64,000 nucleotides of DNA, from assembly GCA_000002445.1 (NCBI GenBank), contig CP000068.1, forward strand, positions 1,472,001 through 1,536,000. Reading direction: 5' to 3'. The first letter of the stretch is position 1, and each line of letters begins with the position of its first letter. The notes under the pieces were generated by a model, which worked only from the letters and a program-made list of their open reading frames with translations, searched no databases and was not told where the DNA came from. Source of the DNA: Trypanosoma brucei (Eukaryota). Positions 18,601 through 62,400 of the stretch are shown in pieces. The translations under genes were made by a program, and so were the position numbers.

Positions 18601-20887
18601 CCTCAGGTAAAGCAGGTTTGTGTCCCGCGCACCGAACAGTGTGTACTCAGCTTTCCCCGCTGACCAATTTGTGACTCAACTCAGTCCTTGTTGAACGGTT
18701 CGCTGGATTGCATTCAGGTCAGAGCTCGTGCATACTATTGTGAGGTCGTTCGCAAAGAAAACGTGCTGCAACCCAGGGATGCAGTTCAGCCGCTTGCTCG
18801 GCGAATCCACCTTGACAATGAACAGCAGTGGACCATGCACCGAGCCCTGAGGGACCCAGCATGTGAGGTGTATGTTCTCAGACAGCATATTGCTCGCCCC
18901 CACCCGCGCGGTGCGACCCTGCAGGAAGCCCGCAATTCACGCCACCAGATGCTTCTCAACTCCAAATGTCTCTAGTGCCTTAACCATGCAGCCGTGATCA
19001 ACCGAATCAAAAGCGCGCGCATAGTCAATAAATACAGCTGCTGTCTTCTCACCGTCCCTCCTCCGCCGCACTGCGCTTGTCACCTGCATGAGCGTGTCCA
19101 GCGTCGACTGCGCCGGCATGAAGCCTGCTTGCTGTGGCTGCAGATTGTCTTCAATGCAGTTCCTAACACGACGTGCCACAATGTGCTCCATCACTTTGCA
19201 CAGCGTGCTGATGAGAGTGGCCGGCCGAAAGGACGCGGTACTGCTAGCTGGCTTGCTCGGCTTAAGCAGCGGGACTGTGATGCCGTGCCTCCACTTGGCT
19301 GGTACCCTCCCCGCGCGCAGACTGCAGATGAACAGTCGCAGCGCACACTTTTTGGCTACTCATCCTAGCTGCTTCAGCTCCTCTCAGTGGATTCCATCAT
19401 CGCGCGCCGCCGTGCCAGAATGCAGCTCACACAGCGCAACTTTCAGCTCTGACTCGGTGACCGGCCGGAACGCGCTCCGTCTGGTGCTGGGTATCTTCAT
19501 TTCTGGCGCATGTGGTGCCTTCGTTGACCTGGCCTTGTACATGTTGACCAAAGTTTGTGCTTACTGGCGCTTTGTCAACCGATGGCCATTCACCACCAGC
19601 ATTGGCGAAGTCAACGACCGCGGCGCATATACCGACTTCACCAGGTTCCAGTTCGCCGAATCCGTGGTCGCCGGCTTCGACACATTTTCCTTCCACCAAC
19701 CCAGCGCCGTTTCAGCCAGCGCTTTCTTCCTCCAGCGAGTCAGCCCGTCCAGATTCGTCAGCCCCTGTGTCCAGAACGGTAACGCTACGCCCTTGCCCTT
19801 GGGAATTGTCCTCTTTGCGGCCATTCGGATGCCTCATGTCACCGCCTCGTCGAGGGCATCCGCGCCCTTGTCCGGCCTCTTCATTCCTCTGAATATGAAC
19901 TCGTCACTCAATTTTCTAAACTCCTGTCACCTCGCTTTGTTCCGTGCATACAGTGTACGTGTGGGCTTGGGGGGGGGGGCAATCACGTCTAGGCAGGTGC
20001 CCCACGAACACATCGAACGTGATCTAATAATGATCACTGTGCGGGCTCAGTGTGTATGCCAAGTTAGAGATCTCGCGCAGCCTCCACACAACGTGATGTC
20101 CGGCGACGATAGTGCACCCGTTCCCGGCTGCCTCCTGGTGATCGATCCGGTATTCGCAACTTTCAGATCGCTCTGCACGCACCAGTTGACTACGCACTCT
20201 CCCTTGTCGTCGCTCGGACGAAACGGATCCCACAACACGTGGTGTGAGCTCACGTCCGCTTCTGCTACCAATGGCCCGCTTTCTACCGCTAATTGTTTCA
20301 ACTATGCTTTTGAATTCATCGATTTTCTAGGAAAATAAGCTGAAGCGCCTGCCAGGTTCACAGCAGCAGAAAATCGCAGCGTCGCTGTCACTTTTTCTGG
20401 CACTTCCTTGTCCATCTTTCACACCCCCACTCCCACCCCTGTGCGGTGTTTTTGCCACAACTACATGCTGCTATCCGCCTATTTGAAGCGCAGCACACTC
20501 CACCGACGCTAGGAGTGTCTCCTGCAAGAGACAAAATAAAACCATATCCTCATGAATCTTCCTCTTCATGACAACCCGCTTCGACTGGAAGAAACCCCTA
20601 AATTTCCACTGGTTTCCACGAATAACGGGAGCAAGATTCGTCTCAACATCTTCACTAAGTAGTAGTATAAGCCTTTTTATCCCAATCGAGGTAAGGTTGC
20701 ACGTGCAGAGGAGCAGTCTAATATATTGCTTCACCCTAGAGTGCCGATGCTGCTACATACTTCTTCTCTGGTCGCCGAAAGCCCCCTTTCCACCCCAATC
20801 ATGTTAAACAGGGCATAATGCGGGCGCTTGTCTTCCTCCTGGATAAAGTACTAGACCCCGGCACCACATTGAGGTGACCGGCATCAC
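15612..20887 (-). mobile_element. ingi: ingi non-LTR retrotransposon, about 5.3 kb. The copy is degenerate and its single ORF is broken into many frames.
   Basis: Minus-strand ORF fragments encode RT motifs ('AAVFIDYARAFDSVDH', 'WVPQGSVHGPLLF', 'FANDLTIVCTSS'), an RNase H ('VWTDGSVVLD...') and two C2H2 zinc fingers ('CPYCQMKCTVKQCLTIHLHAKH', 'YRCHVCGDVFERCGLLVEYMAQH'). A poly(A) tail shows as T9 at 15612-15620 on +. The 5' end near 20887 reads, on the minus strand, 'CCATGGTGATGCCGGTCACCTCAATGTGGTGCCGGGGTCTAGTAC...'. Boundaries are approximate. Confidence 0.8.
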
Positions 20888-20938: not shown

Positions 20939-22540
20939 CTAAAATGCCACCAAACTCATAACAGCAGCAGCCATACTCAGGGCCATTTTCTTATTTACAA
21001 AAAAACTAGAATCATTGCACTTGTCTTCAATTCGACCACAGTTGGCTTTTTCTCCGGGTTTGTGACCCTCATTTTCCTTTTCACAGTCCTTTTTTTTGGT
21101 ATGTCTTGTGTACCTATTTGACTCACGTTTCCCATCATTCCACCATTTTTCTTGGTTTTCTTTTTCTACTTTCTTTTTGGCCTCTTCACTCAATGTGCAC
21201 TTTTTTCCTTCGCCTCCTTTGGGGTTAAAAACGCACCCCTTATCCTTTAAGTTTTCACATTCTTTCTGGTTGTCGTTTGCTGTTTTGCAAACTCGTTCTG
21301 CTTCCTTTGTGGCTCTTAGGTGGTCTGTTGCGGGTTGGTTGCCGCTACTTTGCCCCGTTGTTGCTGCTGCAAATAGTTTGCTCTCAGATGCCAGTCCTTC
21401 GGCTGCCTTTGAGAGGAGCGTTAGAGAAGCTGCTAAGGCATTGCTTGTGCTTGCTGCTGTTGCTCCTGCTCGCATTGCTGCTGCTGCAGTTTCAATTTTT
21501 GTTGCCCATGCTAGCTCCTGCATACCTTTTTTGCCTGTTTTATATTTGGGCATTTTGAAGCAAACGCCGTTTGTTCTTGTCCCGTCGCAGGTCGCTGCTC
21601 CGTCAGTGGTGCCGAAGTAAGCGTCCGTTTTGAAAATCTTGATGTGGCTTTCTAAGCTCCGCAGCGCTGTGAGCATCTTGTCCGGTGTTATTTCCTCCTC
21701 CGTATTGAAGTTACAGTCTTTTACCAAGGCGTCGTATTGGTTTTTGATATCGTTTTCCGCTGCCAGGTTATGTGCTTTTGGTGCATGGTTGCTGGCGTGA
21801 TCACTGCAGATCTTGTTTGCGCCCGTTGGGATGTCTGAGTTTCCTTGGGTGCATACACAAATTAAAATGTCCGCTAAGCAGTCGTCAGTGCCTGTTACCG
21901 TGCCTGCTCCGCAGAAAGCTGCCGAGGCCCTTGCCGCTGATGTTTTCCCGGCATCGGTGAACTCTTTTGCCGCTTCCCCTGTTCCGATCGCCGCCTCTGT
22001 GAGCAGTTTTTTAATCTTTGCTGGTTCGGCATTGTCGATGGCTGCCTGAAGACTCTTGATTTTGGTCTGTAGGGTTGAAGCTTGTTCTAGAATGAGGCTC
22101 ATTCTTGTTCGCGCAAGCTTTAGCTGTTGGTCTGTTATGGATAGTTTGGAGAAGTTGCTGGGTCTGCTGTCGGCGCCGTGCTTCTTGAAGACTCTTTCGG
22201 CGCTTGCTGCCCATTCCGCCCAGCTGGAAGCCCAGTGAGAATTTTCTTTGGCTGGCGACGTTTGCGGGTCCCATTGCTTCTGGGTTCCGTCTGGTTTTAG
22301 AAATTGATTTACCCACGCGGGTCCCCCTAAAGTCATGTTAACGTCGTTGATAGTCTCCATTGCGTTTTGCCATTCCTGTTCCTGGTCTGGAGCTTTGATC
22401 TTCCCTGCTTGTAGTTGTAATACACTGCACAGAGCTTTATAAACGCTGGCGTGCGCTGCGGTTGCAGTGTCGGCGTCACTGCTTTGTGGTACCATCATCA
22501 AAATGACTGACGCTGTTGCTGCGTAACCTGGCATTGCCAT
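20939..22540 (-). CDS. VSG: Variant surface glycoprotein, an intact 533-aa ORF with an A-type N-domain.
   Basis: The product has a signal peptide ('MAMPGYAATASVILMMVPQSS'), the N-domain motif 'VYKALCSVLQLQAG', a C-terminal cysteine-rich domain and the GPI signal '...CNDSSFFVNKKMALSMAAAVMSLVAF*'. Confidence 0.88.
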   Translation of the reverse strand: MAMPGYAATASVILMMVPQSSDADTATAAHASVYKALCSVLQLQAGKIKAPDQEQEWQNAMETINDVNMTLGGPAWVNQFLKPDGTQKQWDPQTSPAKENSHWASSWAEWAASAERVFKKHGADSRPSNFSKLSITDQQLKLARTRMSLILEQASTLQTKIKSLQAAIDNAEPAKIKKLLTEAAIGTGEAAKEFTDAGKTSAARASAAFCGAGTVTGTDDCLADILICVCTQGNSDIPTGANKICSDHASNHAPKAHNLAAENDIKNQYDALVKDCNFNTEEEITPDKMLTALRSLESHIKIFKTDAYFGTTDGAATCDGTRTNGVCFKMPKYKTGKKGMQELAWATKIETAAAAMRAGATAASTSNALAASLTLLSKAAEGLASESKLFAAATTGQSSGNQPATDHLRATKEAERVCKTANDNQKECENLKDKGCVFNPKGGEGKKCTLSEEAKKKVEKENQEKWWNDGKRESNRYTRHTKKKDCEKENEGHKPGEKANCGRIEDKCNDSSFFVNKKMALSMAAAVMSLVAF

Positions 22541-27777: not shown

Positions 27778-29357
27778 CTATTTTTTTACATTCTCATAAG
27801 TAGTGTTAGAAAATATCAGAATAAAAAATTCATGAAACCGAGAAAAAGTACTTAAAATGCTAAAATGCTGCCAAGCTCTGAAACCTGCAGCAATCCAAGA
27901 AAATTTCTTATTGAAAAGAAAACTGTAATCTTTGCATTTGTTTTCTATCCAATTTGCAGCTGGTGTCCTTCTTGCAGACATCCTCCAATTTCCCTTCGCA
28001 TTTCTCTGTTGTTTCTCCTCCTGTTTCTGTTGTTCTCCCTTCTCTTGCTTTAGCTTTGCATTTTTTCTCTTTTTGATCACATTCTCAGCTTTGTGATGGG
28101 CACTTTTTGGTTTCCATTGTATTTTTCACATGCTTTCTTCTCTTCTGCTGTTGGTTCTTTGTTTCCTTTTGGTGTTAGTGCCGGCGTTGTTCGTACATAC
28201 TCGATCTTTATTGCTTCGTACAATTTCCATGCGCTGCGTTTGAGTTGTTGTAGTTCTGTAGCGGTTTTTTTCTGTTTCGCTGCCTTCTGAACTCGCACTA
28301 AAAGTTTGCGTGCGGCCTGCTCGAGGCTTTTGTACCATTTTATTTTGTTGCTGGGCTCGCTTGGTCACTGCTTTATTGCTTTTGTGTAGTCTACGCAGGC
28401 TACTTGTGCTTGCCTTGGGCATTTGCCGCTGGTATGCGGATGTCCCAAGATAACAGTGCCGTCGGTTCCTTGGGTGTCACTCTTCAGTGCGGCTCTGAAC
28501 GTGGCTAGTGCCGCTGTGATTTCGTGCGCCGTGAGTTTTTCCGTAAACGGCGGGCATTTGCTTTCCACTGTCCTCCAGTCCGTTTTGGGGACGAATGTCG
28601 GCCCCCAGGTGTTTCCGTGGGTAGCTACCGTGTGCCCGCAGAGCTCGACGGCGGTAGTTGTTCTATCTGGAGCGCACAAGCAGATCATGTCGCCAATCAG
28701 AGATTTGCCGGCGGCGGGCAACGCGCAGTCCACACTGCGTGTCCCGCTGTGTGACATTGTTGCTGTGTCGCTGCCGTCTTTTTTGAACGTGCCTGTTCCG
28801 AATAGGGCGTTCTCAAGATCGGTTTTGATGTCCGGAGCGTCGGCAGCTAAACTTGGCTTAATGTTCCTTTCGTATTCGGCGTAGATTGTATTGGCGCGCT
28901 CCGCTATTAGTGAAAGTTGTTTTTGGATTCGCCTGCCTGTGACAGTTTCCTGTGGCCCTCTTTTGAGTTTGAGTTTATCATTAGTTATCTAAACCGCTAC
29001 GAACGCCGCTTTTGCGGCCTGCCATTTGGGGTAGAGTGTTTTGCAGTTCTCCCTGTCGTGTGCCATTATCTTGGAGCATGTCTTTTCTGCTTTGTCTGCC
29101 TGTGCGTCTTTTACCTCGTCTTCGAATGCATTGTACCATGAAGCTGCACTGGCTGACATGTTTAGGTGTTCTATTTCGCTGACATCGTTTCTGGTGAGCT
29201 CTACTACATTTAACTTAGTCGGATCGCTGTGTGCTAATGAAATAAGTGTACACATCACGTGGAATTCCTTGCCTTTGGACATGTCGCCTGCACCCCTTGC
29301 GTGTCGTACCAATGCCGGCAATAGCACCTAAAGAAAAGCTAATATGACGTGTGGATT
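27778..29357 (-). pseudogene. VSG: VSG pseudogene with a stop after the signal peptide, several frameshifts and a lost natural stop.
   Basis: ORF 28365-28757 has '...DMICLCAPDRTTTAVELC...' (A-type). ORF 28989-29327 is N-terminal. The C-terminal ORF 27778-28080 has '...CKDYSFLFNKKFSWIAAGF' reading through. The 5' end encodes 'MNPHVILAFL*'. Confidence 0.75.
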
Positions 29358-30715: not shown

Positions 30716-30994
30716 CATAAATAAACTAAATTAGAATATCACTTATTTTCCACACCCTATTGCCATACTACTTTGAACCTGTAGTTCACTGTCATACACA
30801 TTATACAAAATTTCATATTTATCAAATTCTCAAAGGTTTCGAAGGTTATACAAAAGTTTTAAAATGCATCAAATTTTAGTAAGTTTTAGAAATTATCTCA
30901 AGATATAAAATTTCATAAATTTCATAATATTGAGCAGAAAATCCTAAATATTTTTCATTATAGAAACAAAGCTACAAGCAAAAGAGGGGCCTTG

Positions 30995-32444
30995 TTAATG
31001 ACAAATGAATTGCTTCCTGTGGTGTTTGTGGTTCCAGTTTTTCCTTCCGTTTCTTGGTTTGCTTTTTCTGCTGCTTGTTTGCCTTCCTCACTCAATCTGC
31101 ACTTTTTGTTTTCCTCGCCATCGTTGTTGAAAACACACCCCTTATTCTTTAGCTTTTCGCAGGCTTTTTGGTCGTCTTTGGCTGCATTGCAAATTTTTCC
31201 TTGTTTTCTGCTGATTCTGTTTCCTGTTTTTTGCTCACAGCGTCTAGATTTTTCTTGAGAGTTACCACATTTTGTGCGGCTATCATCTCGTAATTGCTAA
31301 GGATGTCTCCTAACTCCACTGTATCGTGAATTTTTGCTAGGGGTGTTTCAGTGGTTCTACCTGCAATACCAGCTGGTATTATCTCGGCATTCACCATATC
31401 GAGGTATGTTTTTGTTTTGTCTGCTGCTAGGCCACCGAAAAGTGCTTCCAGCTTTGTTTTCTCTGCGTTGGGCTCAGTGCTGCCCTTTGGCAGCAACAGT
31501 GTTTTTACTAGCGCTTTGAGTGTCGGCCGTGTATCCAGGTTTCCAGTTTCGTTTGTGTAGGCTATGTCTGTTGCCTTTGATTCGCTGTTTCGTGCTTCCC
31601 ATGCTTCGTGCCACGCCGGGGCGGTTGCTTTGTGACCAGCTCCCATGGCTTGCATGTTTGCTAGCGTTGCTTCCACCGCTGTCGTCGGTATTGTCATGTA
31701 CCCTCTGAGCACCCGCGGTGCGCTGTCCAGGGCCGAAGTGGCCGGGTAACCATTTGTGTTGTGGCCGCTCAGCAATTTGCATGTTCCAGTGCTTTCTGCT
31801 GGCTGGAAGGTGTTATCCGTCTTTCCACCGCCGTGTCGTAGATTTGGATATCCAGCTGCCGTTAGTTCAGTTCGAGTTCCTGGTCCTGCTGTTGCTGGTG
31901 GCATGTTGAGGTCGCATTCTTCGGAGTCTAGCGTGGTTCCCGCTCGGGTTGCGGGTGTGTCAGCATCAGTTGTTACTAGGCACATGTTTTGTGTTCCGCC
32001 TTTTAGTGACTCCAGAAGGTTAAGAAACTCATCGATTCCGCCCTTAAGATACGCAGCAGCTCTAGCGGATCGGATTTGCGTGCCTAGCCCCATGGTCTTG
32101 TAGGTCTCGAGTCCAGCGTTGCTTTTCCGCGCGAAAAATCCTCGCAGCAGCGTTAACTGCTGCAGAGCTTGCGTTTCTGGATTTTTGGCTAGGTAAATGC
32201 TGACCTTATACTCTGCCGCTTTTATTTTCTGAATGTTACTGATCACTTCTTGTCCCTCGCTCAGCATCTCGCCGCTAACCTTAGAAAGCTCGGTTGTGAG
32301 TTTGCACAAAGGTTTCCAGGCTGTCGCCTTCAGACCGGTGCGCTCTGCGGCCATTGTTGTAGTTGGAAGTGTTGCGACGATTATTAAGCCGGCTGTTGAC
32401 AGCCACCGTGCCCACTTGGCGTTTTTTGGCCGTCGCGTCGCCAT
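30995..32444 (-). pseudogene. VSG: VSG, near-intact, with a single frameshift at about 31150-31190 at the start of the C-terminal domain. This may be a homopolymer indel.
   Basis: The 431-aa ORF 31149-32444 has a B-type N-terminus ('...TAWKPLCKLTTELSKV...'). The downstream frame encodes '...NAAKDDQKACEKLKNKGCVFNNDGEENKKCRLSEE...TTNTTGSNSFVINKAPLLLVALFL*'. Confidence 0.8.
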
Positions 32445-34922: not shown

Positions 34923-35306
34923 TAAGTAAATTCACTACTTTTAATTTTGATTGTAAACCTAAATTATTTATAATATTCATAAAATATACAGTGTAAAATT
35001 ATTCATAATAGCACTCATTTTTCATATCCTATTATCTTCCTACTTTACACCTATATGTCACTTTCACATCAAATTATTTTTAATAATTTTTTAACAATTT
35101 CACTTAATTGAACATTTTCATCAGAAAATATTAAAATATATCACAATTTATCGGTTTTATTAACTTCTTTCGAAATATAAAAAGTATTTAAAATACCAAA
35201 ATACTATCAAATCTACAAAAGTAGCAGCAATCAGGGCAAATTTCTTATTTAAGAGTAAATTGGAATATTTTCACTCTGTCCCCTAAAATTCGCAACCATA
35301 TTTGCA

Positions 35307-36724
35307 CTATTCTTCCGTTTTGTCTTTGCATTTCTCTGTCTTTGCTGCACCTCCCTCTGTTTCTGCTGTGTTTTTCTTTTCTTCTTCCTCTTTAGGCTTG
35401 CATTTTCCTTCTGTTTCAGTTTTTTCTTCCCATTTGAAGTTAACTTTGGGGCATGTTGTATTTCTGTTGTAATGGTCGCAAGCTACGCTGTTGGGTGCGG
35501 ATTTATCTACTGCAGTTGTTGAATGGGTAGCGCCGCTTACACCTGTCCATTGGATTGCCTTTTCTGTTTTGATTTCATGTTTGGCTTCGTTTGCTAAATC
35601 GCCTAGTATTTTGTTGCTCCGATTCCCTGCCTCGAGTTGGGGCTGCCTCTCCTCCATGTGATCCGCTAGGTTAGAGAACGCCGACACCCATGTTATTTTG
35701 TCCAGACCCGCTGGCCTCGCAGCTTCGTAGCCGGTGATTTTTATGCAAACCCCGCCGTTTTTTTTTCCATCGCAGGCTCCTCCAATTTTCGCGCCTAGGT
35801 AGCCGATCCCGTTAGCGGTATGGAATAGGGCACTGAGTTCTTTTATCGCGTTCCTTATGTCTCTGAATATGTAGGGTTTTTTTTTCTTGGCTGAGGGCAG
35901 GTTTTTACTATCTTTACTAGGTCGTCGTCCGGAGCTTTGTTTGCGGCGGTTCTCCACCCGGTTGTTCCTTCAGCTTCCTTCGTGCAGGCGCCGTCGGTTA
36001 CCTCTGTCGAGTCGGGTTTCTCGCACAGGCATGTTAGCGTTGCTAGTACAGTTTTGGCTCTTTTATTGCTGTCCGCCGCTTCACAGACTGTTTCCCTTGC
36101 TGTGTTTTGCGTGTCTTCGCCGAATGCGGCGTTGGATGTCTCCGCTCGTCTTTCGCTCACGTCGGCCCCATAGACTGCCATTTTAAGCGTCTTGCTAGCC
36201 TCTGCTTGTGTGCGTTCCAGCGCCGCAGCTGAAAGCTGCGGAAACGTCGACTTGATTCGGCGCGCCTTGTTACCAATCTTGCTTATGAACGCATGAGCGG
36301 CCGCCTTTTGTTCCTGTGTCAGCGCTCCCACCTTCAGTTCTTTCACATCCTGTGGTCCGCCGTCTTCGAGTACATCAAGGGCGGCTTTCTGCCAATCTGA
36401 CCAGCAATTGTCGTATCCGAACTTGTCTTTTCCGGCCGCTTTGGCATCGGCGTGCACGCTTTTGGCCGTTTTGTCTTCGTACATCATGTTTTGCCATTTG
36501 TAAGTTGAAGTTGATAGATTGAGCGCCTGAATAAGTTCATAGTCGTTTGAGCTTAGCGAGCTTGGCTGTGGTAAGTCGAAGGGGCTCTCCGCTATCGTCA
36601 CAAACTTGCACAATACCGCATACTCGTGGCGATTATCACCGGTGTTTATTGCTGCTGTTGTCTTATTAACGACAATTCAGGCTGAGAAAAAGCTTAGTAG
36701 CACTAGTGTAGCCTTGGTCATAGC
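35307..36724 (-). pseudogene. VSG: VSG pseudogene with a stop after the signal peptide and a frameshift near 35900.
   Basis: ORF 35307-35957 is the C-terminal half ('...CPKVNFKWEEKTETEGKCKPKEEE...'). ORF 35855-36613 is the N-terminal domain. The upstream frame encodes 'MTKATLVLLSFFSA*'. A 16-mer-like 'atattaaaatatatca' lies at 35128-35143. Confidence 0.78.
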
Positions 36725-37680: not shown

Positions 37681-37934
37681 CCCTGGCTAATATTTGTATA
37701 ATAAAAAAGAGGTAACCAAAATATCAAAAATTGTTATATCGCTCATTTTTCATACCATATCTCTAATCTTACTAATATACACCAACATGATACTATTACG
37801 AACATTTTATAAATTTCCAAATTTTAAAATTATTAAATTTTTTTTAAAAATATTAAAATGTATTAATTTTTTCCAGTAATTCTTAAAAGTGTTATGCTAT
37901 AATAAAAAATGCAAGCAAAAAAGTGGCATTATTA

Positions 37935-39386
37935 ATTTTAAAAATTGCTTGCTGTGGTGTTTGTTTTTCTATCTTTATCTTCTTGTTTTGCTTTTTCTAG
38001 TTTCTTTTACCTCCTTTTTCAACTCGCACTCTTTTCTTGTTCGTTAAAAGTGCATCCCTTGGCTTCTAGAGCTTTACATTTATCTTCGCTGTTCCCTGCT
38101 TCATTGCATTCTTTTTCCTTGTCTTGCACGCTTGTAACTTTGCGCTGAGAATTTTCCATTGCCTTTTGTAATTCCTTTTCCTTTGCGGCTAGTGCCAGAA
38201 CTCTTTGTCCTTGATAGTACGTCAACATCTTTCGTAAGTGATTAATGTCCTTTATCTGGCTTAGTTTTTCGTTCTGACTGAGGCTGGGTTTGTATGTGTT
38301 TCTATCAATTGTAACAGTGTTCATGTTCTCCCGCACTTTATATGAATCCAGATGTTTGCCTGCTGCATACAGTTCTTCTGCTTTCTGGTTGACTTTGGTA
38401 TCATCAGCTGGCATGTATTTGGAGGTGTCTTTTAGTACATAAGTTTTTGTCGCTTGTTTGGCCGCCTCGCTCGCCAGTATTGTCTCTTTTGTCGGTTTGG
38501 CCCTTTCCGTCGTTTGCATCAAAGCATTGGCTTCCGCTGCCGCCACTGCATTTCGCGCTTTGATCCAGGGATCGATGTTGACGTCAGCCTGGTTTGCAGC
38601 ATAGGTAGGTATCGCTCGCCCGCCGAGGTTGGCGCCACCAGCGGGTAGGTAGAAATAGCCTCCAGCATCGGGTTTGTCGGCTGCTGTGCTGCCAGTGTCT
38701 AGGATGCCGTTGCCTGTGTGTCCCTTCGTTAGCGCGCACGAAACGCTGCCACCGGCTTTTGTTAGTCCGGTTGCTTCTGCTGTTGTCTTTGTAGTCCCAA
38801 AGAGTTTGTCTTTCTTGTAATTGAAGCCGGTATCCGGCGGTGTTGTTTCGCTTGCCAAGTCTAATCCGCATTGCCCAATGGTTGCAGCTCCTTGCTGTGC
38901 TGCAGTCGCTGCGTTGTGTAGACAGCCGTCAGTTCCGGTCGCCGCGTAAGAGGATGCCGCAACTTTTAAAAACTATGCGACATATCCGCTTAAGAATGCC
39001 ACCCGAGTTGCTGCCGAAACTGCTGATTTGACTGCGGTCTCTATCTCATCGCCGGCCAGATCTGGTTGTTCGCTGACGGCCACCAGTATGGGATAAACCT
39101 TTGCTGCATCGTGTGGTTGTGACCTTTCTATTAAGATTCTAAGCTGGTATTCTTGAACTTGGTTTTTGGCCGCTGTTGCTGCCCCGGTTGCTAGTTTGCC
39201 TTCAAAGTGCTTGGGGTAGCCGGCCTGGTTCTTTCCGATCTTACAAAGTGGTGTCCAGGCCGCGTTGTCTATTGCATTCCCAGCGTCTGCATCGCTGTAT
39301 AGCACAATTAGATGCATAGCTGCTATTTGAATTATAGTTTTGGTTATAGTTGGAATGCTGTGCTGACGGTGCTGGTTGCCTATCAT
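37935..39386 (-). pseudogene. VSG: VSG pseudogene with a C-terminal-domain frameshift and a second break between 38858 and 38973.
   Basis: ORF 38973-39386 has a B-type N-terminus ('...AAWTPLCKIGKNQAG...'). ORF 38019-38858 ends '...CKALEAKGCTFNEQEKSAS*' inside the C-terminal domain. The remaining C-terminus and GPI signal are out of frame at 37935-38020. Confidence 0.78.
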
Positions 39387-40185: not shown

Positions 40186-40187
40186 AT

Positions 40188-40262
40188 TATAATATTTGTA
40201 TATGCACACTTACAACACTCTCCTATCATTAACGTTACAACAGTAATTAATATTAACAAACC
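40188..40262 (-). repeat. Single 70-bp repeat.
   Basis: 'tataatatttgtatatgcacacttacaacactctcctatcattaacgttacaacagtaattaatat'. Confidence 0.65.
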
Positions 40263-40402: not shown

Positions 40403-40418
40403 GTGTTAAAATATATCA
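40403..40418 (-). promoter_or_regulatory. VSG 3'UTR 16-mer, a perfect match.
   Basis: 'gtgttaaaatatatca' is the reverse complement of TGATATATTTTAACAC, the element known to be required for VSG mRNA stability. Confidence 0.7.
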
Positions 40419-40504
40419 AATGTTAAAAAGTTTCTCTAAAAAGAAAGTTTTCATAAGATTAACAAAACATTTTTAAAATTCACAAATTACAACCAACTCA
40501 CAGA

Positions 40505-42000
40505 AGAAGCAGCATACTCAGAACCAAGTTCTTATTGACCAGAAAACTGAAAGATCGGCAGTCGGACTTGAGAAGTTTGCCTGTACCATCAACAAAATCA
40601 ATCCATCCGCATACTGCTTACTTAACCGGTTTTACACCCTTGTTTTTAGCTTCACAGGCTTGCTGGGTTTGGTGTTTACCGCAACCTACATCTGTACTTG
40701 TCTCCCCTGTTCCTGCTGCTGTATTTTCTGTTCCTGGTTTAGGTGTGCATCCCTTTTCTTTGTCATAGTCGCAGTGAGCTTCTGGGCATTCTTCTGCAGT
40801 TGTGTTTGTCGTTTTGCATTTAGTCTGTTCCTATACTGACTTTGCCTGGCTTGGGTCTTGGCCTTGATGTATGCTTATCGCCAGGGCTGAGGTCGATGCA
40901 TGTTTGATGCTAGCCTTTGCTTTTTGTACTGTTTCTTTAATTTGAGTTAGTATTCCTCCGCCGCTGTTTTCTCGTTTTCCATGTCTTCTAGCGTCACCGC
41001 CATATCTGTCAAGTCGTGAACCCACTTGACTTTTTTGTAGGACTTGTTCCGCGTTCGTGCTGAAATTTGGAAATTTCACGCAGACACCGCTGCCACTGCT
41101 GCCGTTGCAGTCACTGCTGACGAAGGTGCCGAGGTAACCGTCGCTTGATTCGACGTGAGTTAATTTTGTGACTGCTTCAACGCGGCTTGAAAGTTCATGG
41201 TGGGTTATTTTTGTTCATTTCACGTCGGAGCAGCTTCCTGCGATCGTTTTGAGTTTGCCGTCGGTGGGGTTAGTGTTCTGGCCGGCGGCCCCTGCTTCCC
41301 ATGCCGTCCCGCCGTTAGTCCCTTTGTTGCATAGCCATGCCAGCTTTTCCAGGGATGCGGCTGCTTTTGATTGTCCATCTCCCGCTGTACAGAGGGCTTC
41401 GCGGTTGCCTGTGCTTGCGCCGCCAAAAACAGCGTTGCGCGCCGGGTTAGGTGAGTGTTTTGTGGCTGAACTGTGGATCGCAGTGTTTAGCGTCTTCGCC
41501 AATTCCTGATTTTTTATGGTTTTAGTTGGCCTAGTGTCTGTTGAGTACAGTTTCCATAGGACTTGGATCTCTGACGCTGCATCACTTAGAGCTTTTCGAC
41601 CAATTATGAGCCGTTGCTCGCTTAGTTCCATCGCACCACTTGCTTTAACTTTCTCCTTCATTGGATCGGTTGTTACTGCTTGTATGGCTTTCTTCCAGTC
41701 GTTCCAAAAGCCCTCATAGCCTAGAATTGTTTTCTGTGCTTCTTTTGGGGAGTCTTAAGCTGCTTAACTGTCTGTTCCCTTGTAAAATATTGATTGCCAT
41801 GCAGGTGTTGACACTGAGAAATTCAAGGCTTGTATGAACTGGTAGTCGTCGTCTGTTAGTAGTAGTATCACTGGTATCTCGATCTCTGAGTCTGTTAGCG
41901 CGATAATGTTACAAATGGCCGCCTTCCCTGCTCGGTTCGCGCCTCCGACTATGTCTGCTGCTTGCTTCGATCTCAGACAGCAATTCATCAGCCCCATTCG
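40505..42000 (-). pseudogene. VSG: VSG pseudogene with multiple frameshifts.
   Basis: ORFs 41764-41997 (N-terminus '...AAICNIIALTDSE...'), 41215-41661 and 40831-41079 are VSG fragments in different frames. A C-terminal 'SFLVNKNLVLSMLLLL'-type tail is encoded at about 40505-40560. Confidence 0.75.
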
Positions 42001-42129
42001 GTTATTTTCGACTTTATTGCTTTCTATGGTTATGAGATGAGAAGAAAAGTAAGCGTTGTCGCGGGTCGTTCTTTCTCTAGAAGGAAATAGTTTGGAGTGG
42101 TTAAAATATCGCGCTTACTGTGTGAAATA

Positions 42130-43260
42130 TCAACAGTTGTATTCGTACAGAAAGGTTTTTCGGGGCTGCGTAGTCGGCTTAGTGGTGAGTGGTGTTGGCG
42201 GTCTGTTGATAGTCATGTTCAACCACGCGCACTCCTCCTCTGTAACGTGGTGAAAAACAATAACGTTAGGATTTTTTTCTACAAATTTGTCGAGCGGCCT
42301 TTTTACATGCATCACATAATGACAATCTTGCATATCCACTGTCAACAAACCATCAATTTTCATTTTATGCCTTAATACCTCCCCCACCATAATATTCTCG
42401 TTCAATACGGCATATTCAATATATTTCTCAAAGTTTAGAAAACTCACTCTGCCGGATAAAAGTTTGGAAATTTCCGAGAAGCCAGCTATTTCTTTTACAA
42501 CATCCCTTGAAATTGTATTTGCATACCCAACAACATACCACGTCAGTTTTCCAATATACTCGCCAAATTTACCCAACGCTCTTCCCATATTCAATTTCTC
42601 TCTTGGAAAAACCTCCAGATATTTTATATGCAGCGCCACCCTCATAAAAATATTATCATCTGCCTTCATAATATAAGGATTAGTTGGATTAAATATTTTA
42701 ACTGCGAATTTGAACCACAGATATGTTTTTCTACTCATCGTGAGTTCTGCTTCCCATCCCCAATTGCCCGCATCTCCAACTTTTTAATTTGTTGTTAGAT
42801 TCACATCGCAAACAGGTAAAATAATAATATCCTTATTTAACTCTGCCTCTTCTTCAGCGATTACTCTGAGCTCGCAATTGTTATTTGTATGAGGTAAAAG
42901 GGTATATACTACAGACAACTTCCCAGTAAAATTATTTACCTTCCTTGCCACTTTATGGAGACTCCAACAAGCTTCTTTCTGCAAGTTTCTCCTTATAAAT
43001 CTTTCATCATTATCTATTGAGGGTATTCCAGCTATAACCAAATAATCTTCAGTTTTCCAAATCCCCCTTACATCCTTAGAAACAAATTTCATATACTCAT
43101 CCTCAACAATTTCTAGTGAAATAGATTCACCATCACTAGACAAGCTGTATAGTGATCCACACAAACTGATGCCCATAACAATAAAAGATAAATAACCTAC
43201 TGTTGCATAAATACATATTTTATACCTTATAACTTACCATTATCATACTAATGAAAACTT
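42130..43260 (-). pseudogene. Glycosyltransferase pseudogene (UDP-Gal/UDP-GlcNAc-dependent, GT31/GT67-like family). It is frameshifted and its N-terminus is disrupted.
   Basis: ORF 42784-43176 has '...LVIAGIPSIDNDERFIRRNLQKEACW...', which resembles the galactosyltransferase N-terminal motif. ORF 42130-42738 has 'YLWFKFAVKIF...YIMKADDNIFMRV...', a DxD-type motif region. The two are in different frames. A TM-like 'YLSFIVMGISLCGSLYSL' follows a stop. Confidence 0.55.
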
Positions 43261-44718: not shown

Positions 44719-44875
44719 CTATAATTTTCTGAAATTCACAAAAGCAGAAACAATAAGAGCCAATTTCTTATTGACGAGGAAACTGAAATCTTTGCATTCT
44801 GTTCCTTCCCATTTGCAGTTTCCATTCTTTCTCCAATCAGCTGCTTTTTTAAATCCTTCGCATTCTTTGTTGGGG
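44719..44875 (-). pseudogene. VSG: VSG 3' stub, the last ~50 codons of the C-terminal domain plus the GPI signal.
   Basis: It encodes '...PNKECEGFKKAADWRKNGNCKWEGTECKDFSFLVNKKLALIVSAFVNF'. Unrelated GC-rich/A-rich sequence abuts its 5' side. Confidence 0.75.
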
Positions 44876-44884
44876 GATCGTGGC

Positions 44885-45740
44885 TGAAGCTGCATAAGCT
44901 TTGCCGGCTCTATAATGGTGCTCGCCACATCGGCGATGCTCCGGCGGGTGGAGTAAAAAATCTTTTATATCCGCCGTAGCGGAGCCTCCGGCTGATGCAA
45001 CCGAAAAAAAGAACAAAAAATGAATTCCAAAAATTTCAAAGGTTAAAAAAGGCCATAAAATGGGGAAAAACGCGGAAGCGAAAAAAAAACGGTAAAAAAC
45101 AAAAAATGATTTAAAGTAACGAAAAAAAATGTCGCCGTGGGGGCTAATAAAAAAATTACAAAACTCAAAAAAATTTTAAATTGAATGTGTAACAAAAAAA
45201 TGATTAAAAAATGGTGAAGTAAAAAACATTGAAATTCAAATTAAAAAACTCGAAATGTTTTTTAAAAATCAAGAATGTTAAAAAATTTTAACACTAAAAA
45301 AAATAAAATCAATAACAAAATTGAAAGCCGCTTGTAGAAAAGCCAAGACAAAAAACAAAAAAAACTCGATGACACAAGATATAAACAGCCAAAAAAACCG
45401 TAGAAATTTGTCAAAAAGAGGGGGGAATTGAGTCGGTGGCGTTGGTGAAAAAAAATGTCAAAAGTGTAAAAATCAAAAATTTCTCGAAAAGGAACACAAA
45501 AAAGAAAAATTAAACGCCGCTGCTAAGCTGCAGACTCATAGGGGTTAGGGTGCGCATAACAAAGCAGCCGTCGCTTCATTAAAATTTTGAAAAAGATCTA
45601 AAGCCGCGCTGTTTCGCTGCTAGAAAAAAAAATATTAGTATCAGGGGAAATAAACATAACCCTAAGCCTGGAAACCCTCCCTAATCTACCTACCAACTTC
45701 GTACCTCCCTACCCACCTCCTCTCCTGCCTCGCTGCACAA
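44885..45740. repeat. A-rich low-complexity block with GC-rich islands, ending in a degenerate telomere-hexamer tract (CCCTAA-like on +, about 45655-45735). It is paralogous to 54235-55325.
   Basis: Long A runs are interrupted by short GC words. It shares 'ggggttagggtgcgcataacaaagcagccg' with 'gggttagggtccgcataacaaaagagccgg' at 54950. The tract 'aaccctaagcctggaaaccctccctaatctacctacc...' lies immediately downstream (VSG sense) of the 3'UTR of VSG 45925-47543. Confidence 0.6.
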
Positions 45741-45841: not shown

Positions 45842-45857
45842 CTGATTTTAGGTGTTA
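45842..45857 (-). promoter_or_regulatory. VSG 3'UTR 16-mer, a perfect match.
   Basis: 'gtgttaaaatatatca'. Confidence 0.7.
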
Positions 45858-45924
45858 AAATATATCAAATAGCAAGAATTTATCAAAAATTTTTTTAATA
45901 AAAAGAGAGGGGAAAAATTTGTTT

Positions 45925-47543
45925 TAGAAAAGCAAGGCCACAAAGGCAGCAGAAACCACGCTGAGGACGAATTGATTGTTTACTAGAAAACTGTAATCAT
46001 GGCATTTATAACCTGATTTGTCAGATCCATCAGTATTTTCTCCTTTCCAGCCACAAACTTTGGTAGTCTTACCTTCATTGGCCTTCTCACAGGTCGCCTG
46101 GTCTTTATGATCGGAGCATTTTACACCCTCGTCAGTTGATCCTGCAGTTTGAGTTTAGGTTACAGGGACGCCGTTTTTAGTGGCTTTGGTGGCATTGTAT
46201 TTCCACTTCTTATCTGTACTCTCTGTTTCATCATAAGTACAGAAATCCTTGGAATCGCAGGCATTTTTGTCCGCGTGGTGTGCTGCACACTCTTTCTGAG
46301 TCTGTGAGATTCTGTCGTCGGTTACTGACTTTGTTGCAAAATTTTTAATTTTGTCTTGCTGTTCAAGTAGCTCAAATGCCGCTTTTGCTTGGTAGTGAAG
46401 GAGTATTAACTCCAATTGCTTGGTATTAGTCTGAGAAATTAGCTTTGGGTCTTCTTGAGCTGTTGGGCTTACCAGCTCTTTGGGAATCGTCGCTGCTTGC
46501 ATCTCCTTCCATACTTTTTTGAGGCTGAGGTCTTTGTCGGTGGCGTAATGGTCTTTGATGGCGGCGTCTACCGTTGTTTGGTCTGTTTTCGCGTCGTAAT
46601 GTCCTGCTTGTTTTAAGAAAAAAATTTTGACGGCTCTTTTGAACTCTGTGGATGTCGTTATATCGGCGCTGTCTGGGTCGATCTTTTTTGCGGCAGTTAA
46701 AAGGCCGCTTGTTCTCCAGTTGTTCTGCGCGACCTGCGCTGCGTGCATGTCTTTTGGTGTCGTCCCTGCGTCTGCGGCGTCGAACGTCCCGAAGGGTGCG
46801 TGTTTGATCGAGTCGTCGCTTTGTATTAGTGTCAGGTACCCGGCTGCCATGGTTATATCCTTGTGGTTGCCGGCTGTTTCTACGAGACTGCCTGCCGCGG
46901 TTTTAAAGATGTTGCATGTGGGCGTGCCGGCCATCCGGGCCGCTGCTGAATGGTCGCTTGTGCTTGGTTTAAATAGCTTGTCTGGGTCGCCGCTATATGT
47001 TTTTGGATGTACTTTGCCTGTTGTGTCGGTTGCTAGTGCACATTGCGCCAGTGTGGTTGCCCCTTCTACTGTTGTTGTGCCTGCGATTTTCTCCAGGCAG
47101 CCGTGTGTGCCTGAGGTTGAGTAGCTGTCCGCTGCGATCGAGATGAATTCGGCTAGGCGTCCCCTTACGAAAGAAGTAGCTTGCGCTGCTGCCGGTGCCA
47201 TTTTAACGCCTTGAGTGGTTGTGTCAGTTGGCATTGCCGTTTTGGCCGCTATGCCCGCTATTAGTGGTAAAAGCTTCAGCCTCTTGGCCGGTTCCGCCTG
47301 GGAGGCGTAAATGCTTAGTTGAAGAGCGAGCTTTCGATTGTCTTCACTGTTTTCTAAGCTCTGCGCTAGGCTCTGTGACTGTTCGTTGAAGACCGCTGCT
47401 AGATTCGTTGTCATCTCACATATGGGCGTCCAAGTGCCGTGCGTTAACGCCTTGCCCGCGTTTCCGGTCGCCAGCGCTGATTGCACGAGCACGGATAACG
47501 CCATAAGGCCTAGCCGTAAGGTGAACTCTTGCTTACTTAGCAT
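45925..47543 (-). pseudogene. VSG: VSG, full length and co-linear, but with one in-frame TAA (at 46155-46157) about 66 codons before the natural stop.
   Basis: The 462-aa ORF has a B-type N-terminus 'HGTWTPICEMTTNLAAV'. After the TAA the same frame continues '*TQTAGSTDEGVKCSDHKDQATCEKANEGKTTKVCGWKGENTDGSDKSGYKCHDYSFLVNNQFVLSVVSAAFVALLF*'. Confidence 0.8.
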
Positions 47544-48395: not shown

Positions 48396-48548
48396 TTTTA
48401 GTATACACACTCACAACACTCTCTTATCATTATCATGATTATTATTATTATTTGTGTTGTTATTACAGCTCTCATTAATATATTAGTATATACACACGCG
48501 CAACACACTCCTATAATTTTTATAATATTTATTCACTGATATTGTTGT
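48395..48548 (-). repeat. 70-bp repeats, about two divergent units.
   Basis: 'tatacacactcacaacactctcttatcattatcatgattattattattatt...attaatatattagtatatacacacgcgcaacacactcc'. Confidence 0.7.
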
Positions 48549-53496: not shown

Positions 53497-53795
<299 letters not shown>

Positions 53796-58672: not shown

Positions 58673-58959
58673 AATATACATAACATTAACAAAATGAACA
58701 GAATTAGAGTAGCATTCATTTTTTATACCCTATAACGTTACTATGTACCTATGTAGGTCATTATACACACTTTTCAATAATATCATTATTTTCATTAAGT
58801 TGCAATTTTTATCAAAAAGTGTTAAAACATATCAAATTTTAGTAAATTTAAAAATTCATCTAGATAGAAAACTTTTATAATTTTCAAATTTTCATAAATT
58901 TCATGATATTGAACGAGTATTTTTTAAATTATATCAAAATCACAAGGGTGGCAGTGGCA

Positions 58960-60409
58960 GTCCGAGTTAATTTCTTATTTGAAAGAAAACTAAAGACTTT
59001 GCACTTTTTTCTATCTCATTTGCAACCATCTTTGCACTCGGACCCAGTTTTTTTTCCGGAGCACTTTTTACCCTCTTTCGGTGCTTGTCCTGCTTCTACT
59101 GCTGTGTTTTCTGTCCTTCTCCATCTTTAGGTTTGCAGTGGTTTCCTGTTGTTTTTGTAGTGCTATCCCATTTGGACTTATTTTCTGTGCAGTTTGAGTT
59201 TGTTGTGTGGATATTACAGTGCTGTTGTTGTGCAACTGCTGGGTAGTTTTCAGATGCAGGAGGTTTTTCCAGTAGAAAGCGTTTGATTATCGCCATGGCT
59301 CTTTTTGGGTAGGAGCTCAGGACTGCGTTAGTTTTTTTCTGTATATTCGCTGTTTCATCGGCTTTCTTTAGTTTAGCTGCCGCCTGTCTAAGGTTCACCT
59401 CCCATGCTATTGCTTCTGGCATATCGCCGTTTTTGAATGGCGAGGATTTGGTGAAGTCCGCGCATGCGGTGTTCTCGATGTTCCTGCAATGATGTGTACC
59501 GGTGGTGCTGCCGACTACCATGGCCATGGCTCCGCCGTTCCCTGTTGTTTTGAACATGCCTTTTAGTGCCGCAATTTTTCTTTCTATTAGCTCCTCTGTC
59601 AGTTTTTCCGGTGGGTACTTGGCGCACACGCTGTGGATGGTGTCGTAGCCTGTTTTGTGCGACGTCGCGTCGTTTGCGGTTAGTTGCGGCGTCGCGCCAA
59701 TCCCACAGACATCAGTGTTTTGTGTCGCACCGAACTTGGAGCACACGCATGTCACAGTCGCGCAGAGCGCCTCCCCGACTGCTGGCAACGCGCAAAGGTC
59801 TTCTGTGTTGCCGGTCTTCGTTATTTTACACCTTTTGCTAGCGCTGTCATCGAGTGTCGGTGAGTTGTACGCTGCTTGGTTGAGGTCGGTTCTGATTTGC
59901 GCTTCCAAATTTTCTAAATTAGGTTTGTATTGTGTGTTGAATTCCTCTTGTAGCGCCGTTTTCTCTGCTATTAGTGTTTGTACTGTCAGCCGCACCGCTG
60001 ATGCTGCTGGTGTGTTTAGCAATCCGGTGGGTATTCTACTTTCTGGGCTAGTGGTCTCCTTTGTGGTGGCCTGGATGTTTAGATGCGCCCACTTTTTGAA
60101 CTCAGCTTCGCACTGTGGTTGATTGGTCTGCTCTTGACAGGCCGCTTTCTCTCCCATGTCCGCTTTTCCTTTGTTCGGGTATTTAGCACACCATTGACTT
60201 TCAGCTAATGCCATGTTTAATACTTCTAGCGCTTCAAGTGCTGCGGCGGTGGTTTCCAGCTTAGGAAGCGCCGACATGTCGGCGTCTGTGAGTTTGATTA
60301 GTTGACAGAGAGCTGAAAGCTCCGCTAGGTTCTGCGCCTGGTCGTCGGTTGCGTGGCTGCTTTGAGCCATCACGCATATTACTACGACGGAAAATATCCC
60401 TCGCTGCAT
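58960..60409 (-). pseudogene. VSG: VSG with a C-terminal-domain frameshift near 59096. The N-terminal 437 aa are intact.
   Basis: ORF 59096-60409 has the A-type 'LAELSALCQLIKLTDAD' and ends '...NHCKPKDGEGQKTQQ*'. The remaining C-terminal-domain coding sequence (58960-59100) is out of frame. The near-perfect 16-mer 'gtgttaaaacatatca' lies at 58819-58834. Confidence 0.78.
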
Positions 60410-62039: not shown

Positions 62040-62318
62040 CAATTCCATCTGGGTTGCATACTGTATCATGACTGCCCTTTTACAATTCCTTCATTCCATT
62101 GTTTAAAATGGTGGCCATCACTTTTTTAGTGCTGAAAACTGCGAATCTTGAAGTCTTCTTTACATCCATTTGTCATTCTTCATCTTCTTTAATAATAATA
62201 TTCTTCGCCGCCTCTCACTTACTCTCTATCCACTAAGATACTCCAATTTCACTCTTTCCATTGTCTTCAGTTCTCCTATTGCAGTTGTGCATTTCTTTTT
62301 AGGAACTGACTCTTATTA
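62040..62318. repeat. Conserved cassette element distal to the 70-bp repeat.
   Basis: It has 'ttccatctgggttgcatactgtatc', 'aaatggtggccatcac' and 'gcagttgtgcatttcttttt'. Confidence 0.5.
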
Positions 62319-62400
62319 TTATAATATTAGTATATACAAACTCACAACATGTTTCTTTCATTTCCATTATTTTTTTCTATTATAACCCTAACAAATGTCG
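62318..62400 (-). repeat. Single 70-bp repeat.
   Basis: 'ttattataatattagtatatacaaactcacaacatgtttc...ttataaccctaacaaatg'. Confidence 0.6.

What the first reader, a model, noticed from the sequence alone, without database searches (positions are those of the whole stretch)
30995..32444. Recurrent pattern: the N-terminal domain ORF is intact and the only lesion lies at the start of the C-terminal domain (VSGs at 30995, 37935, 45925, 58960)
In four cassettes the 400-460-aa N-terminal-domain ORF with signal peptide is uninterrupted. The sole visible defect is a frameshift or a single in-frame stop 55-66 codons before the natural stop, at 31150-31190, about 38020, 46155 and about 59096. During VSG switching by segmental gene conversion, the 3' boundary commonly falls within the C-terminal coding region or 3'UTR, and the expression-site resident supplies the C-terminal domain and 16-mer. 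Lesions there should therefore be tolerated, and these genes are plausibly still usable N-domain donors rather than dead pseudogenes. The 31150 lesion lies beside A homopolymers and could be a sequencing indel.
Basis: inference. Interest (0 to 1): 0.5.

Follow-up and report, generated by a model that had tools for sequence, protein, structure and literature searches.

The report
VSG pseudogenes damaged only at C-terminus
Three of the four flagged silent trypanosome coat-protein (VSG) genes have an intact antigenic N-terminal domain and damage only in the buried C-terminal part; this class of gene, and its rescue by copying only the front part into the expression site, is already described for this same strain, so the finding is real but ordinary.

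Summary
The window is a silent VSG array on chromosome 5 of Trypanosoma brucei brucei TREU927, with the genes on the minus strand.

- **Cassette 30958-32444** has one lesion: a 1-nt deletion in an A-run (31194-31198) at the hinge.
- **Cassette 45922-47543** has one CAA>TAA stop (46155-46157) between the two C-terminal sub-domains. Two EATRO 1125 VSG entries end at the same codon, so it is real and old.
- **Cassette 58929-60409** has an intact N-domain ORF but a C-terminal domain (CTD) with several defects: a frameshift, a TGG>TGA stop, a lost Cys and a degenerate GPI signal.
- **Cassette 37892-39386** fails. It has an in-frame TAG inside the N-domain (38973-38975) and three CTD frameshifts.

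Across 13 full-length cassettes, the CTD holds about 15 of 27 lesions in 19% of the coding length. CTD DNA also has 2.8x more homopolymer runs and 1.3x more stop-prone codons, so the excess is only marginal after correction.

The interpretation, rescue by "3' donation", was shown experimentally in TREU927 by Hall et al. 2013. No expressed clone with these N-domains was found. Verdict: already known, low interest.

The parts
30958..32444 (-). C1: silent A-type VSG of the MITat 1.1 family. The start ATG is at 32442-32444 and the natural TAA at 30958-30960.
   Evidence: It is 83-91% identical to MITat 1.1, VSG 504, VSG 1125.225 and VSG 1125.274. Pfam PF00913 matches at 3-367/367.
31194..31198 (-). 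C1 lesion: an A5 run where paralogues need A6 (GAA AAA ATT TGC = E-K-I-C). This is a -1 frameshift at codon 416/417, one codon before the first CTD cysteine. It leads to the premature TAA at 31149-31151.
   Evidence: The solved MITat 1.1 NTD (5LY9) maps to residues 33-400 and the CTD construct (5M4T) to residues 404-478.
30856..30871 (-). C1 3'UTR 16-mer, degenerate (TGATGCATTTTAAAAC, 13/16 matches).
   Evidence: The 16-mer is essential for VSG mRNA stability (PMC5698767).
34854..34893 (-). Partial 70-bp repeat upstream of C1, the usual 5' conversion boundary.
37892..39386 (-). C2: A-type VSG pseudogene damaged in both domains. It has an NTD TAG at 38973-38975 and three CTD frameshifts within about 37925-38042. 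The natural TAA is at 37892-37894, and no 16-mer is found within 3 mismatches.
45922..47543 (-). C3: A-type VSG with a two-sub-domain CTD. The ORF of 462 codons ends at TAA 46155-46157 (CAA in paralogues). The remaining 76 codons are open to the natural stop. There is a perfect 16-mer at 45852-45867.
46155..46157 (-). C3 lesion: a Gln>stop change (TAA) in the linker between the two CTD sub-domains. It is shared with EATRO 1125 VSG 1125.1188 (99.4% identical) and VSG 1125.4755 (94.4% identical).
58929..60409 (-). C4: B-type VSG with an intact NTD ORF of 437 codons (59096-60409). The CTD has a frameshift at the A-run 59107-59110, a TGG>TGA stop at 59016-59018, a Cys>Ser change (SKWD) and a degenerate GPI signal. 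The natural TAA is at 58929-58931. A 16-mer with 1 mismatch lies at 58819-58834.
48402..48506 (-). 70-bp repeat element upstream of C3.
62318..62349 (-). 70-bp repeat element upstream of C4.
40186..40226 (-). 70-bp repeat element upstream of C2.

Best explanation
The region 30958-32444 is a silent, array-located VSG gene of T. b. brucei TREU927 (chromosome 5 subtelomere). With the cassettes at 45922-47543 and 58929-60409, it belongs to the already described class of VSG pseudogenes whose only damage lies in the CTD-encoding part.

Shown here:
- The complete N-terminal domain, signal peptide and conserved cysteines are intact in C1, C3 and C4.
- The lesions are a 1-nt A-run deletion (C1), a CAA>TAA stop (C3), and an A-run frameshift plus a TGG>TGA stop (C4).
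- Every cassette has a 70-bp repeat upstream.

Inferred from published work in the same strain: such genes can be used by duplicative gene conversion. The conversion starts in the 70-bp repeat and ends by a short-homology crossover in the hinge or CTD-coding region upstream of the lesion. [quoted passage not shown]

Why lesions pile up in the CTD is partly shown and partly inferred. CTD-coding DNA is A-rich, with 2.8x more homopolymer runs of 5 or more bases and 1.3x more codons one substitution from a stop. It is therefore intrinsically more prone to slippage frameshifts and nonsense changes. The residual excess fits relaxed constraint on a part that is replaced on activation.

The fourth cassette (37892-39386) is an ordinary pseudogene damaged in both domains. 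It could contribute only through mosaic formation.
For: - Identity of the window: three intact ORFs are exact matches to TREU927 proteins XP_845139-845141 on a contig of 1,608,198 bp.
- Family: Pfam N-domain profiles are matched over essentially their full length (3-367/367, 5-367/367, 1-348/352) inside the ORFs of C1, C3 and C4. Close VSG relatives were found.
- C1: a single inserted A restores a 495-aa VSG that aligns to MITat 1.1-family members without gaps in the N-terminal domain. The frameshift lies outside the crystallised NTD.
- C3: there is no gap and no lost NTD cysteine against VSG 726 and VSG 1125.4040. The stop is shared with two 462-aa EATRO 1125 entries.
- C4: NTD cysteines are conserved against distant full-length B-type VSGs, and the CTD lesions are mapped.
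- 70-bp repeats lie upstream of every cassette.
- Mutability of CTD DNA and lesion statistics.
- Literature: Hall 2013 text and Table S1, Smith 2026, VSGdb paper.
Against: - No expressed VSG with the C1, C3 or C4 N-domain was found among public protein entries, so use of these particular genes is not shown.
- C1's lesion sits at the very 5' edge of the CTD. Only about 88 nt of hinge, with 10-11-nt low-complexity matches to other VSG 3' regions in the window, is available for a rescuing crossover.
- The excess of CTD lesions is small once mutability is allowed for. The counts come from 13 genes read by eye.
- The C1 frameshift cannot be told from a homopolymer sequencing error with the tools at hand.
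Confidence: 0.8

Rival explanations
1. The C1 frameshift, and possibly the C4 frameshift, is a homopolymer sequencing or assembly error. C1 would then simply be an intact VSG.
For: - The lesion is a single base missing from an A-run.
- After the shift, the CTD is 71/71 aa identical to the intact VSG 1125.225.
- No other ORF lesion exists.
Against: - The window is the finished TREU927 reference, which was Sanger-sequenced from clones (own knowledge).
- The same kind of A-run or T-run indel occurs in C2 (three times) and C4, next to independent substitution lesions such as the TGA stop and Cys losses, so real slippage mutations are common here.
- C1's own 16-mer is already degenerate (13/16), which shows decay of the cassette's 3' end.
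- The repaired 495-aa protein is not in the public collection.
- For C3 this rival is excluded by the shared stop in EATRO 1125.
Confidence: 0.12
2. The pattern is purely mutational and carries no functional meaning. CTD-coding DNA is a hotspot for slippage and nonsense changes, and these are ordinary decaying pseudogenes that happen to have been hit there first.
For: - CTD DNA has 12.7 homopolymer runs of 5 or more bases per kb against 4.5 in NTD DNA, and a nonsense target of 0.050 against 0.039.
- 7 of about 9 frameshifts lie in CTDs.
- After correction, gene-level p is 0.07-0.22.
- The window also holds three cassettes with NTD-only lesions and intact CTDs (5069-6595, 8828-10270, 12275-13742).
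Against: - Lesion-level tests remain nominally significant after correction (stops p=0.04, frameshifts p=0.02).
- C4 keeps a 437-codon NTD ORF while its roughly 100-codon CTD carries at least four defects.
- C3's stop is shared by copies that differ at 26-27 of 462 residues, and all keep the NTD ORF open.
- Experimental use of this class is documented.
Confidence: 0.3
3. The recurrence arises because damaged CTD modules are copied between silent paralogues by gene conversion within the archive. One lesion is then seen in many genes.
For: - Four-gamete pattern in the C3 family at two CTD sites 16 codons apart: Cys/Trp crossed with Gln/stop, with all four combinations present.
- C1's CTD is 100% identical to VSG 1125.225 while the NTD is 89% identical.
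- C4's relatives VSG 1541 (Lister 427) and VSG 1125.4980 end at the same '...CTANNCK'.
Against: - The four lesions in this window differ from one another and lie in unrelated CTD types, so within the window they are independent events.
- Recurrent mutation (TGC>TGG, CAA>TAA) cannot be excluded for the four-gamete pattern.
- Only protein sequences of the relatives were available.
Confidence: 0.2

Closest known systems
Class 'C' VSG pseudogene donors rescued by 3' donation (Hall, Wang & Barry 2013, PLoS Pathog, PMC3708902)
   Same: Same strain (TREU927) and same kind of array genes: an intact NTD-encoding part, frameshift or stop only in the CTD-encoding part, and a 70-bp repeat upstream.
   Different: The four genes of this window are not among the listed donors. 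Chromosome 5 donors in Table S1 are Tb927.5.5080.4840.4670.4930, Tb05.5K5.320 and Tb05.5K5.330, and I could not map these IDs to window coordinates. No expressed clone with the C1, C3 or C4 N-domain was found. C2 would be class 'N C'.
VSG MITat 1.1 (P26331; structures 5LY9 for the NTD and 5M4T for the CTD)
   Same: C1 is 82-83% identical over the N-domain ORF. It has the same signal peptide, cysteine pattern, one-sub-domain CTD and GPI signal type.
   Different: C1 carries a -1 frameshift at the hinge and a degenerate 3'UTR 16-mer. It is a silent array copy in another strain.
EATRO 1125 VSG 1125.1188 and VSG 1125.4755; intact relative VSG 1125.4040
   Same: VSG 1125.1188 is 99.4% identical to the C3 ORF and ends at the same codon. 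VSG 1125.4755 (94.4%) also ends there. VSG 1125.4040 (539 aa) shows what the intact gene looks like, with Gln at the stop position.
   Different: These come from a different strain. Only ORF translations are available, so the stop codons themselves are inferred from the identical ORF ends.
Mosaic VSG formation by segmental gene conversion (Hall 2013; Keneskhanova et al. 2025, PMC12137147; Smith et al. 2026, PMC13233330)
   Same: This is the route by which C2, with its N-domain stop, could still contribute sequence.
   Different: Mosaicism needs highly similar donors and acts inside the N-domain. It is not needed for C1, C3 or C4.

Membership tests
T. brucei VSG, A-type N-terminal domain (Pfam PF00913) | Full-length match to the A-type NTD profile above the gathering score, inside one ORF | tested here: met
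   C1 scores 250 bits over profile 3-367/367 and C3 scores 126 bits over 5-367/367. C2 matches only in two pieces split by the TAG (profile 12-117 and 121-367), so C2 does not meet the 'inside one ORF' part.
T. brucei VSG, B-type N-terminal domain (Pfam PF13206) | Full-length match to the VSG_B profile inside one ORF | tested here: met
   C4 scores 157 bits over profile 1-348/352. Cysteines are conserved against VSG 761 and VSG 1125.4764.
Functional VSG gene | CTD with the full set of 4 or 8 cysteines, followed by a GPI-anchor signal, in frame with the NTD | tested here: not met
   - C1: the CTD is intact but out of frame.
- C3: interrupted by TAA, and one Cys is changed to Trp.
- C4: frameshift, TGA stop, Cys>Ser and a degenerate GPI signal.
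- C2: three frameshifts.
. The cysteine criterion is taken from the VSGdb paper.
Functional VSG gene | Conserved 3'UTR 16-mer TGATATATTTTAACAC | tested here: inconclusive
   C3 is perfect (45852-45867). C4 has 1 mismatch (58819-58834). C1 matches 13/16 (30856-30871). C2 has none within 3 mismatches. How many mismatches are tolerated is not known to me; Ridewood 2017 tested scrambled versions.
Array VSG cassette usable as a conversion donor | 70-bp repeat upstream of the gene | tested here: met
   Partial 70-bp repeats lie 0.8-2.4 kb upstream of C1-C4 and of the other cassettes.
Class 'C' pseudogene (CTD-encoding pseudogenicity only; Hall 2013 Table S1) | No frameshift or in-frame stop in the NTD-encoding part, and at least one in the CTD-encoding part | tested here: met
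   Met for C1, C3 and C4. Not met for C2, which has a TAG at codon 138.
Donor actually used by 3' donation | An expressed VSG whose NTD matches the gene and whose CTD comes from elsewhere | tested here: not met
   Protein searches with the three NTD ORFs returned only Lister 427 and EATRO 1125 VSGnome entries and MITat 1.1. The clusters hold no expressed-clone accessions. This is absence in one public collection only; raw VSG-seq data could not be searched.

The most novel reading that the evidence does not exclude
N-terminal-domain reading frames of CTD-damaged silent VSGs are actively preserved, by selection on the archive or by conversion from intact copies, while CTD modules decay freely and circulate with their lesions among paralogues. 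Three observations point this way: the CTD lesion excess that survives mutability correction; the C3 stop shared by copies 5-6% diverged that all keep an open NTD; and the four-gamete pattern inside 48 nt of CTD-coding DNA. If true genome-wide, the 'functional' VSG repertoire should be counted by intact N-domains, and the archive would show domain-specific selection.
Probability: 0.25. Interest if true: 0.35.

Novelty: already known. Interest (0 to 1): 0.15.

Why it matters
It matters little beyond confirmation. The size of the usable VSG repertoire depends on whether genes with CTD-only damage count as usable. That point was made and shown experimentally for this strain in 2013.

The useful additions here are three:
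- One of the four genes is misdescribed and one has multiple CTD defects.
- The C3 stop is a real, old allele shared with another strain.
- A good part of the apparent clustering of lesions in the CTD is explained by the homopolymer-rich, stop-prone composition of CTD-coding DNA. Any genome-wide claim of 'tolerated' CTD lesions must correct for that.

Tried and rejected
- **Exact-product look-ups:** I looked up the C1 and C3 ORFs and the intact neighbour in the assembly index, hoping to find independent assemblies or reads. None was on record.
- **Repaired C1 protein:** an exact look-up of the repaired C1 protein found nothing in the collection.
- **Papers not held:** Marcello & Barry 2007 and Cross et al. 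2014, which would give genome-wide numbers of CTD-only pseudogenes, are not in the library.
- **Selection on the C3 N-domain:** I considered using the C3 family divergence to prove it. With about 26 aa differences, the expected number of neutral stops is only about 1-2, so the test has no power, and no paralogue DNA is available.
- **Microhomology scan:** I scanned upstream of each lesion against other VSG 3' regions in the window. It finds 10-16-nt matches, but these are too short and low-complexity to say more than that a crossover is feasible.
- **Lesion type by domain:** a Fisher test of lesion type (stop or frameshift) against domain was not significant (p=0.22).
- **Unused tools:** I did not use the structure-prediction, RNA or prokaryote-oriented tools. 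They do not bear on the question.

Full report
**What the window is**

All long VSG-like ORFs lie on the minus strand. Three intact ORFs are exact matches to T. brucei brucei TREU927 proteins on a contig of 1,608,198 bp. They are 20939-22540 (XP_845139), 48764-50365 (XP_845140) and 55509-56969 (XP_845141). By its size I take this contig to be chromosome 5.

tblastn with VSG proteins and the window's own ORFs marks about 18 VSG-like cassettes or fragments. Most cassettes are followed by a match to the 3'UTR 16-mer: 17 matches within 3 mismatches, 15 of them on the gene strand, against 1.2 expected. Partial 70-bp repeats lie between the cassettes, and a 10-copy array lies at 1255-2015. This is a silent subtelomeric VSG array.

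**Cassette 1 (30958-32444), the coordinates of the finding**

- The ATG ORF of 431 codons (31149-32444) covers the whole A-type N-domain profile (PF00913 3-367/367, 250 bits).
- It is 83-91% identical to MITat 1.1, VSG 504, VSG 1125.225 and VSG 1125.274.
- The reading frame changes between '...AENKEK' and 'ICNAAKDD...'. The DNA reads GAA AAA TTT GCA where the paralogues' E-K-I-C requires GAA AAA ATT TGC. One A is therefore missing from the run at 31194-31198.
- Putting it back gives a 495-aa protein that aligns to four family members without gaps in the N-terminal domain and with every cysteine kept.
- After the shift, the CTD and GPI signal are 71/71 identical to VSG 1125.225.
- Mapped on the solved MITat 1.1 fragments, the NTD (5LY9) covers residues 33-400 and the CTD construct (5M4T) covers 404-478. 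The frameshift is at codon 416/417, one codon before the first CTD cysteine.
- The cassette's own 16-mer is degenerate, 13/16. Since the 16-mer is essential for VSG mRNA stability (PMC5698767), C1 would probably need a donated 3' end even if the frameshift were an error.

**Cassette 2 (37892-39386)**

The description fails here. The signal-peptide ORF stops after 137 codons at TAG 38973-38975, inside the N-domain. The same frame continues, and the Pfam profile is split at positions 117/121. The CTD needs three frame changes to be read (f0>f2>f0>f1), and no 16-mer is detectable.

**Cassette 3 (45922-47543)**

- A single TAA (46155-46157) interrupts an otherwise open 539-codon frame.
- Relatives have Gln at that position: VPVTQAQ, VPVTQTQ and VPVTQPQ.
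- The stop lies in the linker between the two 4-Cys sub-domains, 77 codons before the natural stop.
- The fourth cysteine of the first sub-domain is Trp (KKWKYN).
- Two EATRO 1125 VSGnome entries are exactly 462 aa and end at the same residue. They are VSG 1125.1188, with 3 differences in 462 residues, and VSG 1125.4755, with 26 differences. The stop is therefore real and predates the separation of these copies.
- The two variable CTD sites occur in all four combinations across the family. This implies conversion, or recurrent mutation, within 48 nt of CTD-coding DNA.

**Cassette 4 (58929-60409)**

- The B-type N-domain ORF is intact: 437 codons, PF13206 1-348/352, with cysteines conserved against distant full-length VSGs.
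- The CTD is badly damaged. One A is missing from the run at 59107-59110 (CAG AAA ACA CAG instead of CAG AAA AAC ACA GCA). There is a TGG>TGA stop at 59016-59018 and a conserved Cys>Ser change (SKWD). The GPI signal has lost the DSS site and part of its hydrophobic tail.
- All close relatives in the public collection are truncated. VSG 1541 (Lister 427) and VSG 1125.4980 end at the same '...CTANNCK', inside the CTD.

**Is the pattern more than chance?**

I read every cassette in three frames. Of 13 full-length cassettes:

| Class | Number | Cassettes |
|---|---|---|
| Intact ORF | 3 | 20939-22540, 48764-50365, 55509-56969 |
| CTD-only lesions | 3 | C1, C3, C4 |
| NTD-only lesions, CTD intact | 3 | 5069-6595, 8828-10270, 12275-13742 |
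| Lesions in both domains | 4 | 27871-29345, 35172-36721, C2, 40501-42114 |

The lesion counts are about 10 stops and 2 frameshifts in N-domains, and about 8 stops and 7 frameshifts in CTDs. The CTD is about 19% of the coding length.

- Against length alone the CTD excess is strong (p=2.5e-5; gene level p=0.002).
- CTD-coding DNA is different material. It has 12.7 homopolymer runs of 5 or more bases per kb against 4.5, and a per-codon nonsense target of 0.050 against 0.039.
- With these weights, the excess is p=0.04 for stops and p=0.02 for frameshifts, and p=0.07-0.22 at gene level.
- The frameshifts of C1 and C4 sit in A runs and those of C2 beside A or T runs.

So a real trend exists. Much of it is mutational. 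What remains is weak evidence for relaxed constraint on the CTD, or equivalently for preservation of the N-domain frame.

**Mechanism and what is known**

Hall, Wang & Barry 2013 (PMC3708902) infected mice with TREU927. They defined '3' donation' and found it in 358 of 629 unique expressed sequences. [quoted passage not shown] They report that 43 of 103 NTD donors were pseudogenes, including one repaired by 3' donation although its damage lay at the very 3' end of the NTD-encoding region. Their list includes array donors of class 'C'.

Smith et al. 2026 found a strong C-terminal bias of recombination in vivo, with about 12 bp of perfect identity at the junctions. The VSGdb paper already noted that the incoming copy sometimes inherits part of the CTD from the resident gene.

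What can be added for these genes:
- C3 and C4 offer about 210-230 nt of hinge or CTD sequence upstream of their first lesion for a rescuing crossover.
- C1 offers only about 88 nt, with weak matches.
- None of the three N-domains appears among expressed clones in the public protein collection. The neighbouring intact VSG (55509-56969) clusters with several expressed-clone entries.

**Verdict**

Everything fits a known kind, so interest is low.

Noticed in passing
window 55202-55290 and about 54690-54770 (minus strand): TTAGGG-like repeat tracts lie about 150-250 nt and about 700 nt downstream of the 16-mer of the intact VSG 55509-56969. This signature of telomere-proximal VSGs sits here inside an array. 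The same VSG clusters with several expressed-clone protein entries (AGQ49969 and others).
   Followed up: partly
C3 family: window 46155-46205 and proteins P0007, P0008, P0032, P0033, P0034: Two CTD sites 16 codons apart (Cys/Trp and Gln/stop) occur in all four combinations among paralogues of three strains. This implies gene conversion, or recurrent mutation, within 48 nt of CTD-coding DNA in the silent archive.
   Followed up: partly
window 30985-31197 compared with 31245-32444: C1's CTD is 71/71 aa identical to EATRO 1125 VSG 1125.225, while the N-domain is only 89% identical. The two domains therefore have different histories.
   Followed up: no
window 40403-40418 and 40501-42114: A heavily damaged cassette with about 5 in-frame stops keeps a perfect 16-mer, whereas the nearly intact C1 has a degenerate one. 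Decay of the ORF and of the 3'UTR element are uncoupled.
   Followed up: no
window about 16000-20400: A GC-rich block (0.55-0.56 against about 0.40 elsewhere) has long ORFs on both strands (17083-18057 on the minus strand, 19088-20338 on the plus strand) and no Pfam match. It is probably a retroelement or other non-VSG insertion in the array.
   Followed up: partly
window 42130-42738 (minus strand): A 202-aa ORF has a weak, sub-threshold match to Galactosyl_T (PF01762, 18 bits). It is probably a glycosyltransferase gene fragment between VSG cassettes.
   Followed up: partly
window 1255-2015 and 53498-53673: There is a ten-copy 75-bp (70-bp-type) repeat array at the left end and a perfect (TAT)58 tract next to a 70-bp repeat element. 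Both are much longer than the single partial repeats upstream of most cassettes.
   Followed up: no
window 44722-44913 (minus strand): An isolated CTD-only VSG fragment (64 codons, open, with a GPI signal) has no N-domain upstream.
   Followed up: no
proteins P0009 (Lister 427 VSG 1541) and P0011 (VSG 1125.4980): Relatives of C4 from two other strains end at the same residue ('...CTANNCK'), inside the first CTD sub-domain. This is another CTD truncation shared across strains.
   Followed up: no
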